From sequence record OQ349392.1: 64,000 bases of DNA; one strand, 5' to 3'. Positions 35,407 to 47,121 of the stretch are shown piece after piece. The notes beneath the pieces are model-generated. The model saw only the letters and a program-made list of their open reading frames with translations. It did no database searches and was not told the origin of the DNA. Each line of letters starts with the position of its first letter. Within the stretch, counting starts at the first letter, position 1. The translations under genes and the position numbers were made by a program. This DNA is from Escherichia phage KIT06.

Positions 35407-35479
35407 TGGGAATTAGCCAAGTTGGTAAGGCATAGCACTTTGACTGCTAGATGCAAAGGTTCGAGTCCTTTATTCCCAG
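35407..35479 (+). tRNA. tRNA-Gln (anticodon UUG)
   Basis: Cloverleaf folded by hand: acceptor tgggaat/attccca, anticodon loop ctTTGac, T-arm aaagg-ttcgagt-ccttt. Confidence 0.85.
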
Positions 35480-35480
35480 C

Positions 35481-35567
35481 GCGAGAATGGTCAAATTGGT
35501 AAAGGCACAGCACTTAAAATGCTGCGGAATGATTTCCTTGTGGGTTCGAGTCCCACTTCTCGCACCA
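35481..35567 (+). tRNA. tRNA-Leu (anticodon UAA), type II, CCA encoded
   Basis: Acceptor gcgagaa/ttctcgc, anticodon loop ctTAAaa, long variable arm. Confidence 0.85.
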
Positions 35568-35572
35568 AATTT

Positions 35573-35647
<75 letters not shown>

Positions 35648-35657
35648 ATTTAATTTA

Positions 35658-35731
35658 CTCCGTGTAGCTCAGTTTGGTAGAGCGTCTGCTTTGGGAGCAG
35701 AATGTCGCAGGTTCAAATCCTGCCGCGGAGA
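35658..35731 (+). tRNA. tRNA-Pro (anticodon UGG)
   Basis: Acceptor ctccgtg/cgcggag, anticodon loop ttTGGga, T-loop ttcaaat. Confidence 0.8.
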
Positions 35732-35733
35732 CT

Positions 35734-35823
35734 GGAGGCGTGGCAGAGTGGTTTAATGCACCGGTCTTGAAAACCGGCAGTCGCTCCGGCGACTCATAGG
35801 TTCAAATCCTATCGCCTCCGCCA
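35734..35823 (+). tRNA. tRNA-Ser (anticodon UGA), type II
   Basis: Acceptor ggaggcg/cgcctcc, anticodon loop ctTGAaa, long variable arm. Confidence 0.85.
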
Positions 35824-35828
35824 GTTTT

Positions 35829-35904
35829 GCTGATTTAGCTCAGTAGGTAGAGCAACTCACTTGTAATGAGAAGGTCGGCGGTTCGATTCCGTCAATCAGC
35901 ACCA
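35829..35904 (+). tRNA. tRNA-Thr (anticodon UGU)
   Basis: Acceptor gctgatt/aatcagc, anticodon loop ctTGTaa. Confidence 0.85.
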
Positions 35905-35905
35905 A

Positions 35906-35980
35906 GGCCCTGTAGCTGGAAGGTTCAAGCAAGCGACTCATAATCGCCAGATGGTGGTTCAATTCCACCCAGGGCCACCA
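35906..35980 (+). tRNA. tRNA with anticodon CAU (Ile by lysidine modification as in T4, or Met)
   Basis: Acceptor ggccctg/cagggcc, anticodon loop ctCATaa. Confidence 0.8.
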
Positions 35981-35989
35981 AATTAATTT

Positions 35990-36076
35990 GGGGAGTTATC
36001 CCGTAGAGGTAGCGGTGTGGACTGTAAATCCATTGTCATTGCGACTCGGGTGGTTCGACTCCATCACTCCCCACCA
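35990..36076 (+). tRNA. tRNA-Tyr (anticodon GUA), type II
   Basis: Acceptor ggggagt/actcccc, anticodon stem gtgga/tccat, loop ctGTAaa, long variable arm, T-loop ttcgact. Confidence 0.7.
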
Positions 36077-36080
36077 ATTT

Positions 36081-36155
36081 GGATGTGTAGCTCAATGGCA
36101 GAGCGATCGCCTGTTAAGCGATTGGTTATAGGTTCGAATCCTATCACGTCCGCCA
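36081..36155 (+). tRNA. tRNA-Asn (anticodon GUU)
   Basis: Acceptor ggatgtg/cacgtcc, anticodon stem atcgc/gcgat, loop ctGTTaa, T-loop ttcgaat. Confidence 0.75.
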
Positions 36156-36159
36156 AATC

Positions 36160-36235
36160 CGAGGCATAGCTCAGAAGGAAGAGCAAGGACCTTCTAAGTC
36201 CTAGGTCGTAGGTTCGATCCCTATTGCCTCGACCA
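36160..36235 (+). tRNA. tRNA-Arg (anticodon UCU)
   Basis: Acceptor cgaggca/tgcctcg, anticodon stem aggac/gtcct, loop ctTCTaa. Confidence 0.85.
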
Positions 36236-44282: not shown

Positions 44283-44311
44283 GTTTACTTTTCCTCTTGA
44301 CTGTGGTATAA
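44283..44311 (+). promoter_or_regulatory. early promoter (GTTTAC ... tgtGGTATAAT)
   Basis: GTTTAC at 44283-44288, extended -10 tgtggtataat at 44301-44311, upstream of regB. Confidence 0.65.
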
Positions 44312-44339
44312 TTTTTCTATCAGTTAAGAGGAGAATAAC

Positions 44340-44801
44340 ATGACTATCAACACAGAAGTTTTTATCCGTCGAAATAAGCTCCGTCGTCACTTTGAGTCGG
44401 AGTTTCGTCAAATTAACAATGAGATTCGTGAGGCATCAAAAGCAGCAGGGGTCTCATCGTTTCATCTAAAATATTCTCAGCATCTTCTTGATCGTGCAAT
44501 TCAACGGGAGATTGATGAGACATATGTTTTTGAATTATTCCATAAAATAAAAGACCATGTTTTAGAAGTTAATGAATTCCTGAATATGCCTCCACGCCCT
44601 GACATTGACGAGGATTTTATTGATGGGATTGAATATCGTCCTGGGCGTTTAGAAATCACAGATGGAAATCTTTGGCTTGGATTTACAGTTTGTAAACCTA
44701 ATGCGAAGTTCAAAGACCCGTCGCTTCAATGCAGGATGGCAATTATCAACAGTCGTCGTTTACCGGGAAAGGCTTCTAAGGCAGTAATTAAAACTCAATG
44801 A
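44340..44801 (+). CDS. regB: site-specific endoribonuclease RegB
   Basis: 153-aa ORF (T4 RegB is 153 aa); SD gaggag; early promoter immediately upstream. Confidence 0.8.
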   Translation: MTINTEVFIRRNKLRRHFESEFRQINNEIREASKAAGVSSFHLKYSQHLLDRAIQREIDETYVFELFHKIKDHVLEVNEFLNMPPRPDIDEDFIDGIEYRPGRLEITDGNLWLGFTVCKPNAKFKDPSLQCRMAIINSRRLPGKASKAVIKTQ

Positions 44802-44808
44802 GGTAAGC

Positions 44809-45354
44809 ATGAGAAAAGCACTACTCGCTGGTCTATTGGCCATTTCTATGATGGCACATAGCTCCGAGCATACTTTCAGTAATGTCCAACTCGATAACAT
44901 GCGTTACGCGTATCAATTCGGGGAACAATTTTCTAAGGATGGAAAATATAAAACACACAAAAATATCCACAAGAGCGGATTAGGTCATATAATGGCTGCT
45001 ATTTTATGGCAAGAAAGCTCTGCCGGAGTTAATTTAAAATCTAAACCAAAGCATCATGCCTACGGAATGTTCCAAAATTATTTGCCGACCATGCGCGCAA
45101 GAGTTAAGGAACTTGGTTATAATATGACCGATGCCGAAATAAAAAGAATGTTGAATAAACGGTCCAATTCAGCTTCCTGGGCGTACATTGAACTTTCTTA
45201 TTGGTTAAATATACATAAGGGCGATATAAGAAAAGCAATATCCTCTTATAATTCGGGATGGAATGTTAAAGCAGGTTCTAAATATGCTTCTGAAGTCCTA
45301 GAAAAGGCTAACTACCTTAAAAATAATAAACTGTTGGAAATAGTAAATGACTAA
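44809..45354 (+). CDS. secreted/periplasmic protein, possible transglycosylase-like
   Basis: 181-aa ORF with N-terminal signal-peptide-like MRKALLAGLLAISMMAHS. Confidence 0.55.
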   Translation: MRKALLAGLLAISMMAHSSEHTFSNVQLDNMRYAYQFGEQFSKDGKYKTHKNIHKSGLGHIMAAILWQESSAGVNLKSKPKHHAYGMFQNYLPTMRARVKELGYNMTDAEIKRMLNKRSNSASWAYIELSYWLNIHKGDIRKAISSYNSGWNVKAGSKYASEVLEKANYLKNNKLLEIVND

Positions 45355-45688
45355 AATTTTGGTTTTATGTGTAGGATTAATTTCATTTTCTGCGTTAGCA
45401 GATATATCATATTCTGAAGTTAGAGAGTATGTAAACCGTACTGCCGCGGATTATTGTGGGAAAAATAAAGCATGCCAAGCTGAATTTGCGCAGAAATTAA
45501 TATATGCATATAAAGACGGAGAAAGAGATAAATCAAGTAGATACAAGAACGATACTTTATTAAAACGATATGCTAAAAAGTGGAATACCTTAGAATGTTC
45601 AGTTGCGGAGGAGAAAGATAAAGCCGCTTGTCATTCAATGGTTGACCGTTTAGTAGATTCTTATAATCGAGGATTGAGTACTAGATGA
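45347..45688 (+). CDS. small secreted protein (possibly vs-like)
   Basis: 113-aa ORF with signal-peptide-like MTKILVLCVGLISFSALA; several Cys. Confidence 0.5.
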   Translation: MTKILVLCVGLISFSALADISYSEVREYVNRTAADYCGKNKACQAEFAQKLIYAYKDGERDKSSRYKNDTLLKRYAKKWNTLECSVAEEKDKAACHSMVDRLVDSYNRGLSTR

Positions 45689-46164
45689 TTGTAAAATATA
45701 TCAAGGGCGATATTGTCGCCCTATTTCTTCAAGGTAATATTATTGCGCACGGGTGCAATTGTTTTCATACTATGGGTTCAGGTGTAGCAGGTCAATTAGC
45801 AAGGGCCTATCCTAAAATTTTAGAAATAGATAAAACTACTACCGAGTACGGTTCTCGCGATAAATTAGGCGATATGTCTATTGTTTTTAAACATAGTCCT
45901 ACGGGATTTGGTATATGCTATAACCTGTATACGCAATACGAACCGGGTCCTAATCTTGATTATGGTGCTTTAGTAAACTGCATGATAGAATTAAATCTAC
46001 AGGCAGAGACCCTTTTGTTTAAACCAGTAATTTACATTCCACGCATAGGTTGCGGTATTGCTGGCGGTGATTGGGATAAGGTTTCTAAATTAATCGATAT
46101 GTTTACTCCTGATATTGATTTAATAGTGGTGGATTATGAAAGTACATTACCCGCATCCGTTTGA
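45685..46164 (+). CDS. macro-domain-like protein (predicted ADP-ribose binding or hydrolysing)
   Basis: 159-aa ORF; motif GNIIAHGCNCFHTMGSGVAGQL resembles the macro-domain nucleotide-binding loop; later GIAGGDWD. Confidence 0.55.
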   Translation: MIVKYIKGDIVALFLQGNIIAHGCNCFHTMGSGVAGQLARAYPKILEIDKTTTEYGSRDKLGDMSIVFKHSPTGFGICYNLYTQYEPGPNLDYGALVNCMIELNLQAETLLFKPVIYIPRIGCGIAGGDWDKVSKLIDMFTPDIDLIVVDYESTLPASV

Positions 46165-46348
46165 TCCTAAAAACAAAGCGGAAATTATTCGTCAATGGGA
46201 ACGCATTTGCCGTACTAAATGCCCAATTAATAGTTCTCATGATGTAGATAAAGATTATATTGGAACATTCGTTGAATATACCTTTATTGATAGGAAAGGT
46301 CGTAAACAACATGTAGAAGAATATTGCTTAAAGGTTACATGGTTATGA
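46136..46348 (+). CDS. hypothetical small protein
   Basis: 70-aa ORF overlapping the end of the macro-domain gene. Confidence 0.45.
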   Translation: MKVHYPHPFDPKNKAEIIRQWERICRTKCPINSSHDVDKDYIGTFVEYTFIDRKGRKQHVEEYCLKVTWL

Positions 46349-46530
46349 GTCTGAGTAAAGAACAAAAAGATAAATTGTTTGAGCTTATCCATGAACTTCT
46401 AGATGAGCATACAGAAGCAAACACCTTTTATGATGAATACGGCCCGCTATCTCCCGAACAGCAAGAAGAATTTGCTGACCGGTTTGATAAGAAAGAAAAC
46501 GAATTAATAGCTTATGTGAATACGCTTTAA
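46324..46530 (+). CDS. hypothetical small acidic protein
   Basis: 68-aa ORF. Confidence 0.45.
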   Translation: MLKGYMVMSLSKEQKDKLFELIHELLDEHTEANTFYDEYGPLSPEQQEEFADRFDKKENELIAYVNTL

Positions 46531-46539
46531 GAAGGTGAT

Positions 46540-47121
46540 ATGGCGAGTTTAATTTTTACTTATGCAGCAATGAATGCTGGAAAATCTGCTTCTCTTTTGA
46601 CTGCTGCGCATAATTATAAAGAACGCGGAATGGGTGTATTAGTTCTTAAACCTGCTATTGATACTCGCGATTCTGTCTGTGAAGTCGTTTCTCGCATTGG
46701 AATTAAGCAGGAAGCGAATATTATTACGGATGATATGGATATTTTTGAGTTCTATAAATGGGCTGAAGCACAAAAAGATATTCATTGCGTATTTGTAGAT
46801 GAAGCTCAGTTTTTAAAAACTGAACAGGTGCATCAATTAAGCCGAATTGTCGATACATACAATGTTCCTGTTATGGCTTATGGTCTAAGGACTGATTTCG
46901 CTGGAAAATTATTTGAAGGTTCTAAAGAACTTTTGGCGATTGCAGATAAACTTATTGAACTAAAGGCAGTTTGTCATTGCGGTAAAAAAGCGATTATGAC
47001 GGCTCGATTAATGGAAGATGGAACACCAGTTAAAGAAGGTAATCAAATCTGTATTGGTGATGAAATTTATGTTTCTTTGTGCAGAAAACATTGGAATGAA
47101 TTAACTAAAAAGCTCGGTTAG
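46540..47121 (+). CDS. tk: thymidine kinase
   Basis: 193-aa ORF; P-loop MNAGKSAS; C-terminal Zn-ribbon Cys pairs (CHCGKKA ... CIGDEIYVSLC). Confidence 0.95.
   Translation: MASLIFTYAAMNAGKSASLLTAAHNYKERGMGVLVLKPAIDTRDSVCEVVSRIGIKQEANIITDDMDIFEFYKWAEAQKDIHCVFVDEAQFLKTEQVHQLSRIVDTYNVPVMAYGLRTDFAGKLFEGSKELLAIADKLIELKAVCHCGKKAIMTARLMEDGTPVKEGNQICIGDEIYVSLCRKHWNELTKKLG

What the first reader, a model, noticed from the sequence alone, without database searches (positions are those of the whole stretch)
45685..46164. Macro-domain-like protein encoded between vs-like genes and tk
The motif GNIIAHGCNCFHTMGSGVAGQL resembles the ADP-ribose-binding loop of macro domains. T4-like phages ADP-ribosylate host proteins, and hosts use ADP-ribosylation and NAD-derived signals in defence; a phage macro domain could reverse ADP-ribosyl marks or degrade ADP-ribose-derived signals.
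Basis: inference. Interest (0 to 1): 0.5.

Follow-up and report, generated by a model that had tools for sequence, protein, structure and literature searches.

The report
T4 Tk.4 (AdfM) macrodomain, divergent allele
The ORF is a real stand-alone macrodomain enzyme, but it is the counterpart of phage T4 gene tk.4, which databases already label as a macro domain and a 2025 preprint names AdfM, a factor that lets T4 resist the DNA-ADP-ribosylating DarTG2 defence; so the finding is correct but already known.

The parts
45685..46164 (+). tk.4/adfM homologue: a 159-aa stand-alone macro domain protein
45748..45789 (+).
   Evidence: H22, G23, N25, C26, G33 and A35 are invariant in 54 homologues. It aligns to the equivalent loops of BT1257, TARG1, Poa1p and DarG.
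45922..45936 (+). N80-L-Y-T-Q84: the strand end that carries the residue at the catalytic position (Gln84)
   Evidence: N80, Y82 and Q84 are invariant. Q84 aligns to TARG1 K84 and to the first K of the T. aquaticus DarG 'FPTKK' motif, which is K80. BT1257 also has Gln here. The equivalent SCO6735 Gln85 is essential (PMC9411070).
46039..46074 (+). Loop 2, residues 119-130 (PRIGCGIAGGDW): the diphosphate-binding loop
   Evidence: P119, G122, G124 and W130 are invariant, and G127 and G128 are present in at least 90% of members. TARG1 D125 aligns to A126, so there is no Lys/Asp dyad.
45774..46157 (+). Diverged cassette: the body of tk.4 is only 55-65% identical to T4 at the DNA level, while the flanks are 95-100% identical
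   Evidence: Identity to T4 in consecutive 100-column blocks. Per-gene protein identities.
45347..45688 (+). vs homologue (valyl-tRNA synthetase modifier). Its stop overlaps the tk.4 start as ATGA.
   Evidence: 93.9% aa identity to T4 Vs.
46136..46348 (+). tk.3 homologue. It overlaps the 3' end of tk.4 by 29 nt.
   Evidence: 91.4% aa identity to T4 Tk.3. T4 has a 4-nt overlap here.
44284..44312 (+). Sigma-70-like promoter (TTTACT-17-TATAAT with TG) upstream of regB. It is a possible early promoter for the co-directional run regB, vs.1, vs, tk.4.
   Evidence: Consensus scan only. The number of sites found in the region does not exceed the number in shuffled sequence, so this is an inference.

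Best explanation
The ORF is this phage's version of T4 tk.4 (adfM), a stand-alone macro domain ADP-ribosylglycohydrolase. It belongs to the ALC1-like class of macro domains, which includes TARG1, DarG, Poa1p and SCO6735.

Proposed mechanism:
- It is probably made early in infection, as part of the co-directional run regB, vs.1, vs, tk.4 (inferred).
- In a host carrying DarTG2, infection frees the toxin DarT2, which ADP-ribosylates thymidines in single-stranded TNTC motifs and blocks phage DNA replication (published).
- The phage macro domain binds the ADP-ribose through its two glycine-rich loops, residues 22-35 and 119-130.
- It then hydrolyses the ribose-thymine bond, releasing ADP-ribose and restoring the DNA (inferred from the T4 knockout phenotype and from SCO6735 and PhiKZ AdfM biochemistry).

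The catalytic position holds an invariant Gln84, not the Lys of DarG and TARG1. The chemistry is therefore most likely the water-mediated route proposed for SCO6735 rather than a lysine-dependent one (inferred).

The protein acts as an 'orphan antitoxin'. It has no DarT-binding C-terminal domain and no toxin partner.
For: Macro domain:
- Pfam PF01661 scores 32 bits against a cut-off of 22.
- The family profile matches BT1257 (E 2e-19), TARG1 (4e-17), SCO6735 (8e-16), Poa1p (3e-14) and DarG (5e-12).
- The AF2 model has pLDDT 94.4.

Orthology to T4 tk.4:
- The position between vs and tk.3 is the same in T4 and T2.
- Identity is 58% over the full length, E 1e-70.
- Flanking genes are 94-100% identical.

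Function of the orthologue:
- tk.4 was the single significant hit in a T4 transposon screen on a DarTG2 host.
- A clean knockout made T4 sensitive to DarTG2 (preprint 10.1101/2025.11.20.689424).
- T4 lacking adfA and adfN stays resistant to DarTG2, which had predicted a further factor (PMC11825919).

Chemistry:
- SCO6735, which has Gln at the same position, removes thymidine-linked ADP-ribose faster than DarG or TARG1, and its Gln85 is essential (PMC9411070).
- PhiKZ AdfM removes ADP-ribose from DarT2-modified DNA in vitro (PMC13309987).

All motif positions in the window allele carry the family consensus residue. DarG is the only PADLOC hit and the best NCBIfam hit, and both are weak and confined to the macro domain part of the model.
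Against: - No experiment has been done on this allele. It is only 58% identical to the T4 protein that was tested.
- The T4 result is a single preprint with genetic evidence only. It reports no enzymology on Tk.4.
- The Gln-for-Lys difference means the mechanism cannot simply be copied from DarG.
- Macro domains of this class also act on protein-Glu/Asp-ADPr, on ADP-ribose-1''-phosphate and on phosphate-linked nucleic-acid ADPr, so thymidine-ADPr need not be the only or main substrate.
- Early expression is inferred only from gene order and one consensus promoter match.
Confidence: 0.72

Rival explanations
1. It is an ADP-ribose-1''-phosphate phosphatase like yeast Poa1p, as the GenBank label 'phosphatase' implies. 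It would clear a small-molecule by-product of 2'-phosphotransferase-type RNA repair.
Against: The label is inherited from a domain name, not from an assay. The only phenotype reported for the T4 gene is sensitivity to DarTG2. From my own knowledge, T4-like phages have no KptA/Tpt1 enzyme that would make Appr1p. BT1257 and TARG1 match the family profile better than Poa1p does.
Confidence: 0.1
2. It erases or tunes ADP-ribose marks on proteins or RNA. These could be the phage's own Alt/ModA/ModB marks, or marks made by other host ADP-ribosyltransferase defences such as the mRNA-modifying CmdT.
For: TARG1-class macro domains also remove protein Glu/Asp-ADPr. SCO6735 acts on protein substrates too. 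The allele divergence leaves room for a shifted specificity.
Against: From my own knowledge, Alt and Mod enzymes modify arginine, a linkage that macro domains are not known to cleave. CmdTAC defends strongly against T-even phages, which carry tk.4 (abstract). So at least the T4 allele does not neutralise it. No data link tk.4 to these marks.
Confidence: 0.08
3. It degrades or sequesters ADP-ribose-derived immune signals (Thoeris gcADPR) or toxic ADPr metabolites.
Against: The argument is purely contextual. The closest structural relatives are macromolecule-ADPr hydrolases. The T4 orthologue has a DarTG2 phenotype.
Confidence: 0.05
4. It neutralises DarT2 mainly by binding it (stoichiometric inhibition) rather than by hydrolysis. 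The allele divergence would then track different DarT2 variants.
For: Catalytically dead SCO6735 Q85A still inhibits DarT efficiently in vitro. ICP1 AdfB works by binding DarT. The cassette-like divergence is outside the invariant active-site motifs.
Against: Every active-site residue is invariant across 54 homologues, which argues that catalysis is under selection. The protein has no counterpart of the DarG C-terminal DarT-binding domain.
Confidence: 0.05

Closest known systems
Phage T4 Tk.4 = AdfM (anti-DarT factor Macrodomain; NP_049723; preprint 10.1101/2025.11.20.689424)
   Same: Same locus between vs and tk.3. Similar length (159 vs 155 aa). 58% identity end to end. Residues 1-47 are nearly identical. 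The same invariant motifs are present, including Gln84.
   Different: The body of the gene is a different allele, with 55-65% DNA identity inside otherwise 95-100% identical DNA. Loop 2 reads GCGIAGGDW, which is the family consensus, against GAGIGKGNW in T4. There are four extra C-terminal residues and a 29-nt overlap with tk.3. This allele has not been tested.
SCO6735 (Streptomyces coelicolor) and BT1257 (Bacteroides thetaiotaomicron): the Gln-type subclass of ALC1-like macro domains
   Different: About 25-29% identity. The 'mobile loop' that is five residues longer in SCO6735 and BT1257 is short here, shown by a six-residue insertion in BT1257 relative to the phage profile. They are cellular proteins, not phage proteins.
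DarG antitoxin macro domain (DarTG2; PDB 5M3I, 5M31, 7OMU)
   Different: Catalytic Lys80 is replaced by Gln84. There is no C-terminal DarT-binding domain and no adjacent darT. The score is 27.7 bits against a 250-bit cut-off.
PhiKZ gp104 AdfM (chimallivirus anti-DarTG2 macro domain, PMC13309987)
   Same: A phage-encoded orphan macro domain of similar size with the same proposed role. Distant homology is detectable (hhalign probability 96.6%).
   Different: PhiKZ AdfM is a close DarG relative (E 9e-25 to M. tuberculosis DarG) and has the FPTK lysine motif. The T4-type family is not close to DarG and has Gln. The two look like independent acquisitions that share a name.
Human TARG1/OARD1 and yeast Poa1p
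   Same: Same macro domain class. The alignment is full length, and the H-x-C-N-C and P-x-I-G-C-G motifs are shared.
   Different: TARG1 K84 and D125 are replaced by Q84 and A126. Both are eukaryotic proteins that act on protein-ADPr or Appr1p.

Membership tests
Macro domain (Pfam PF01661) | Sequence score above Pfam's gathering cut-off over the whole domain | tested here: met
   32 bits against a cut-off of 22, E 1.3e-7, covering model positions 2-117 of 118.
Macro domain (Pfam PF01661) | Three-layer alpha/beta macro fold | tested here: met
Macro domain (Pfam PF01661) | Two conserved glycine-rich ADP-ribose/diphosphate-binding loops | tested here: met
   HGCNC...MGxGxA (residues 22-35) and PxIGxGxAGGxW (residues 119-130), with invariant glycines.
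Macro domain (Pfam PF01661) | Binding or hydrolysis of ADP-ribose | not testable with these tools
   Needs biochemistry.
T4 Tk.4 / AdfM (T4-type) | Homologous protein at the syntenic position between vs and tk.3 | tested here: met
   The gene order regB, vs.1, vs, tk.4, tk.3 matches T4 and T2. 58% identity, E 1e-70.
T4 Tk.4 / AdfM (T4-type) | Required for phage growth on a DarTG2 host | not testable with these tools
   Shown only for the T4 allele.
DarG antitoxin (DarTG2) | Score above the NCBIfam equivalog cut-off | tested here: not met
   27.7 bits against 250. Only the macro part of the 338-position model is matched. The PADLOC DarG model gives 27.5 bits over positions 3-144 of 329.
DarG antitoxin (DarTG2) | Catalytic lysine (K80 in T. 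aquaticus DarG) | tested here: not met
   hhalign pairs NLYTQ84 with NFPTK of T. aquaticus DarG. Gln is invariant in 54 homologues.
DarG antitoxin (DarTG2) | C-terminal DarT-binding domain and an adjacent darT gene | tested here: not met
   The protein is 159 aa and consists of the macro domain only. Its neighbours are vs and tk.3.
SCO6735/BT1257 subclass of ALC1-like macro domains | Gln in place of the catalytic Lys, and no Asp partner | tested here: met
   Q84 aligns to the BT1257 Gln and to TARG1 K84. A126 aligns to TARG1 D125. The equivalence to SCO6735 Gln85 comes from PMC9411070.
SCO6735/BT1257 subclass of ALC1-like macro domains | Mobile loop about five residues longer than in DarG and TARG1 | tested here: not met
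   BT1257 has a six-residue insertion relative to the phage profile after the Gln. The phage loop aligns to TARG1 without a gap.
Poa1p-type ADP-ribose-1''-phosphate phosphatase | Phosphatase activity on Appr1p | not testable with these tools

The most novel reading that the evidence does not exclude
The tk.4 locus may be an arms-race hot spot where Tequatroviruses swap functionally distinct macro domain cassettes. Under this reading, the window-type allele (58% identical to T4 AdfM, and at least as common) would differ from the T4 allele in which DarT2 variants or which ADP-ribosylated substrates it neutralises. It would work through a lysine-independent, Gln-assisted mechanism that is distinct from DarG and from PhiKZ AdfM.
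Probability: 0.15. Interest if true: 0.45.

Novelty: already known. Interest (0 to 1): 0.15.

Why it matters
DarTG is a widespread toxin-antitoxin defence that stops phages by ADP-ribosylating their DNA. T-even phages appear to carry layered counter-measures: AdfA, the NADAR enzyme AdfN against DarTG1, and the macro domain Tk.4/AdfM against DarTG2. Recognising this ORF as the AdfM locus explains why a macro domain sits in an early-gene region of a T4-like phage. For phage therapy or host-range prediction, it helps to know which allele a phage carries. The remaining open points are modest. Do the divergent alleles differ in specificity? How does a Gln-type macro domain cleave the thymidine-ribose bond?

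Tried and rejected
- Single-sequence AlphaFold gave an unusable model (pLDDT 34). It was replaced by a run on a 54-sequence alignment.
- A tblastn search of the plasmid collection, meant to find an annotated DarG to align against, returned only stand-alone macro domain genes. I instead rebuilt the T. aquaticus DarG macro domain sequence from the PDB alignment and aligned it to the family profile.
- The genomic context of one bacterial homologue (Pelagimonas, 40% identity) showed a chromosomal stand-alone gene with no DarT or other defence neighbour. This is one example and says nothing about origin.
- The CmdTAC paper was checked for a macro domain counter-factor. There is none; the word appears only in its reference list.
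- The promoter scan found no more sites than in shuffled sequence, so expression timing remains inferred.
- Filing the protein as a DarG family member was rejected. It has no catalytic Lys, no C-terminal domain and no toxin partner, and it scores far below the cut-off.
- The minus-strand ORFs that overlap the gene (for example 46103-46312, and the other overlapping minus-strand ORFs listed) were not pursued. The + strand ORF is conserved and accounts for the region.

Full report
**Observation**

The + strand ORF at 45685-46164 (ATG to TGA, 159 aa) is present exactly as described. The ATG overlaps the stop codon of the upstream gene as ATGA, and a GAGGA lies 11 nt upstream. This is typical of the tightly packed, translationally coupled genes of T4-like phages.

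**What the window is**

A 2.9-kb stretch around the ORF is 98-99% identical to many Escherichia and Shigella Tequatrovirus genomes, including SH-1, HY01 and ime09. Gene order was compared with the annotated T2 and T4 records. It reads regB (44340-44801), vs.1 (44809-45354), vs (45347-45688), the ORF in question, a tk.3 homologue (46136-46348), a tk.2 homologue (up to 46530), then tk (46540-47121), rI.1, rI and rI.-1. The ORF therefore sits exactly where T4 has tk.4.

In closely related records the gene is already annotated. Labels include 'Macro domain-containing protein', 'phosphatase', 'tk.4' and 'RNase III inhibitor'.

**Is it a macro domain?**

Yes, by every test.
- Pfam PF01661 matches nearly end to end, at 32 bits against a gathering cut-off of 22.
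- PHROG 335 matches at E 1e-71.
- Among solved structures, the protein alone finds BT1257, Poa1p, SCO6735, DarG and TARG1.
- A profile of 54 homologues (A1) raises these matches to E 2e-19 (BT1257), 4e-17 (TARG1), 8e-16 (SCO6735), 3e-14 (Poa1p) and 5e-12 (M. tuberculosis DarG).
- Single-sequence AlphaFold failed (pLDDT 34). With alignment A1 the model reached pLDDT 94.4 and pTM 0.89.

The protein thus belongs to the ALC1-like class of macro domains (TARG1, DarG, Poa1p, SCO6735).

**Active site**

Across the 54 homologues the invariant residues are G8, H22, G23, N25, C26, G33, A35, D49, G62, N80, Y82, Q84, P119, G122, G124 and W130. The window allele has the consensus residue at every motif position.

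The profile alignment places Q84 opposite TARG1 K84 and opposite the Gln of BT1257. It places A126 opposite TARG1 D125. To test DarG directly, I took the T. aquaticus DarG macro domain sequence from the alignment printed and aligned it to the family profile. N-L-Y-T-Q84 pairs with N-F-P-T-K, and that lysine is the first K of the FPTKK motif, the catalytic K80.

So the DarG/TARG1 lysine is replaced by an invariant glutamine. This is the situation described for Streptomyces SCO6735. There, Gln85 occupies the lysine position and is essential. The enzyme removes thymidine-linked ADP-ribose from DNA faster than DarG or TARG1, and a water-mediated mechanism was proposed (PMC9411070).

The phage family lacks the five-residue-longer 'mobile loop' that marks the SCO6735/BT1257 subclass. 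BT1257 shows a six-residue insertion relative to the phage profile. The family therefore combines the Gln of SCO6735 with the short loop of DarG and TARG1.

**What is known about the orthologue**

A bioRxiv preprint of November 2025 (10.1101/2025.11.20.689424) screened a T4 transposon library on a DarTG2 host.
- tk.4 was the single significant hit.
- A clean knockout made T4 sensitive to DarTG2.
- The authors noted structural similarity to M. tuberculosis DarG.
- They named the gene adfM (anti-DarT factor Macrodomain) and proposed that it removes ADP-ribose from DNA.

This fits an earlier observation. T4 lacking adfA and the NADAR gene adfN (30.3) stays resistant to DarTG2, which had suggested a further factor (PMC11825919).

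A separate paper gave the same name to PhiKZ gp104. It showed in vitro that gp104 removes ADP-ribose from DarT2-modified TNTC DNA (PMC13309987). I compared the two proteins.
- PhiKZ gp104 is a close DarG relative (E 9e-25) with the FPTK lysine motif.
- It is only a distant homologue of the T4-type family. BLASTP finds only short marginal segments (best E 0.001 over 23 residues), while hhalign gives a probability of 96.6%.

The two 'AdfM' proteins are thus different branches of the macro domain class and probably separate acquisitions.

**How this allele differs from T4's**

The protein is 58% identical to T4 Tk.4 over 155 residues. The first 47 or so residues are almost the same.

At the DNA level, identity to T4 runs as follows:
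- 95-100% through regB, vs.1 and vs;
- 89% over the first 90 nt of tk.4;
- 55-65% from about 45774 to 46157;
- 85-92% in tk.3.

Per-gene protein identities to T4 are:

| Gene | Identity to T4 (%) |
|---|---|
| regB | 98 |
| vs.1 | 99 |
| vs | 94 |
| tk.4 | 57 |
| tk.3 | 91 |
| tk.2 | about 50 |
| tk | 99 |
| rI.1 | 100 |

tk.1 is absent. This is a cassette-like replacement. Its left junction lies inside the conserved 5' part of tk.4 and its right junction at the tk.4/tk.3 boundary. There the window has a 29-nt overlap instead of T4's 4-nt ATGA.

The allele is not rare. 312 phage records carry a copy at least 90% identical to it. For the T4 allele, 224 records are at least 90% identical and a further 159 are 80-90% identical. 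The protein database shows a near-continuum of alleles from 82% down to 40% identity.

**Most likely mechanism**

The protein is a stand-alone ADP-ribosylglycohydrolase that acts as an orphan antitoxin against DarT2. It probably removes ADP-ribose from thymidines of phage DNA with Gln84-assisted, water-mediated chemistry.
- Shown here: macro fold, class, conserved active site, orthology and synteny with T4 tk.4.
- Taken from the literature: the DarTG2 phenotype of the T4 gene, and the thymidine-ADPr hydrolase activity of Gln-type (SCO6735) and phage (PhiKZ) macro domains.
- Inferred: that this 58%-identical allele does the same, and that it is expressed early. The only support for early expression is gene order and one consensus promoter upstream of regB at 44284-44312, in a scan that found no excess over shuffles.

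**Rivals**

- An Appr1p phosphatase, which is the source of the database label.
- An eraser of protein or RNA ADP-ribose marks.
- A degrader of ADPr-derived signals.
- A DarT2 binder rather than an enzyme.

None has direct support. Invariant catalytic residues argue for catalysis. The closest structural relatives act on macromolecule-linked ADP-ribose.

**Membership**

It is a macro domain and a member of the T4 Tk.4/AdfM family. It is not a DarG. It scores 27.7 bits against a 250-bit cut-off, lacks the catalytic Lys, and has no C-terminal DarT-binding domain and no adjacent toxin. It shares the defining Gln of the SCO6735/BT1257 subclass but not their long loop.

**Verdict**

It is annotated as a macro domain in public records, and its T4 orthologue was functionally assigned in 2025. 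What is left is a modest question: do the swapped alleles differ in specificity, and how does the Gln-type site work?

Noticed in passing
window 46324-46530 (tk.2 homologue) and the junction at 46530-46540: A second swapped cassette lies next to tk.4. The tk.2 homologue is only about 50% identical to T4 Tk.2, and tk.1 is missing altogether. Meanwhile tk, rI.1 and regB are 98-100% identical to T4.
   Followed up: partly
window 45704-45722: An 8-bp GC-rich hairpin (AGGGCGAUAUUGUCGCCCU, -12.9 kcal/mol, z -2.9) followed by a T-rich run lies 20 nt inside the tk.4 coding sequence. The hairpin sequence is identical in T4 and T2, although the gene diverges soon after it. It could be a chance palindrome in the conserved codons KGDIVAL, or an RNA element.
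   Followed up: partly
window 35407-36235: A cluster of 10 tRNA genes: Gln, Leu, Gly, Pro, Ser, Thr, Met(CAT), Tyr, Asn and Arg. From my own knowledge T4 has 8, so Tyr and Asn would be extra here. This was not checked against a T4 record.
   Followed up: no
window 46136-46164: tk.4 ends 29 nt inside tk.3, with four extra C-terminal residues (PASV). In T4 the two genes share only an ATGA overlap. This is probably the right-hand recombination junction of the allele swap.
   Followed up: partly
L003 12518-13006 (PhiKZ gp104): The two phage proteins called AdfM in the literature are not close relatives. PhiKZ gp104 is DarG-like with the FPTK lysine motif, whereas T4-type Tk.4 has an invariant Gln and is nearest to BT1257 and SCO6735.
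   Followed up: yes
window 44809-45354 (vs.1): The Vs.1 homologue has an N-terminal signal-peptide-like sequence. Some records annotate it as containing a transglycosylase SLT domain. It is 99% identical to T4 Vs.1.
   Followed up: no
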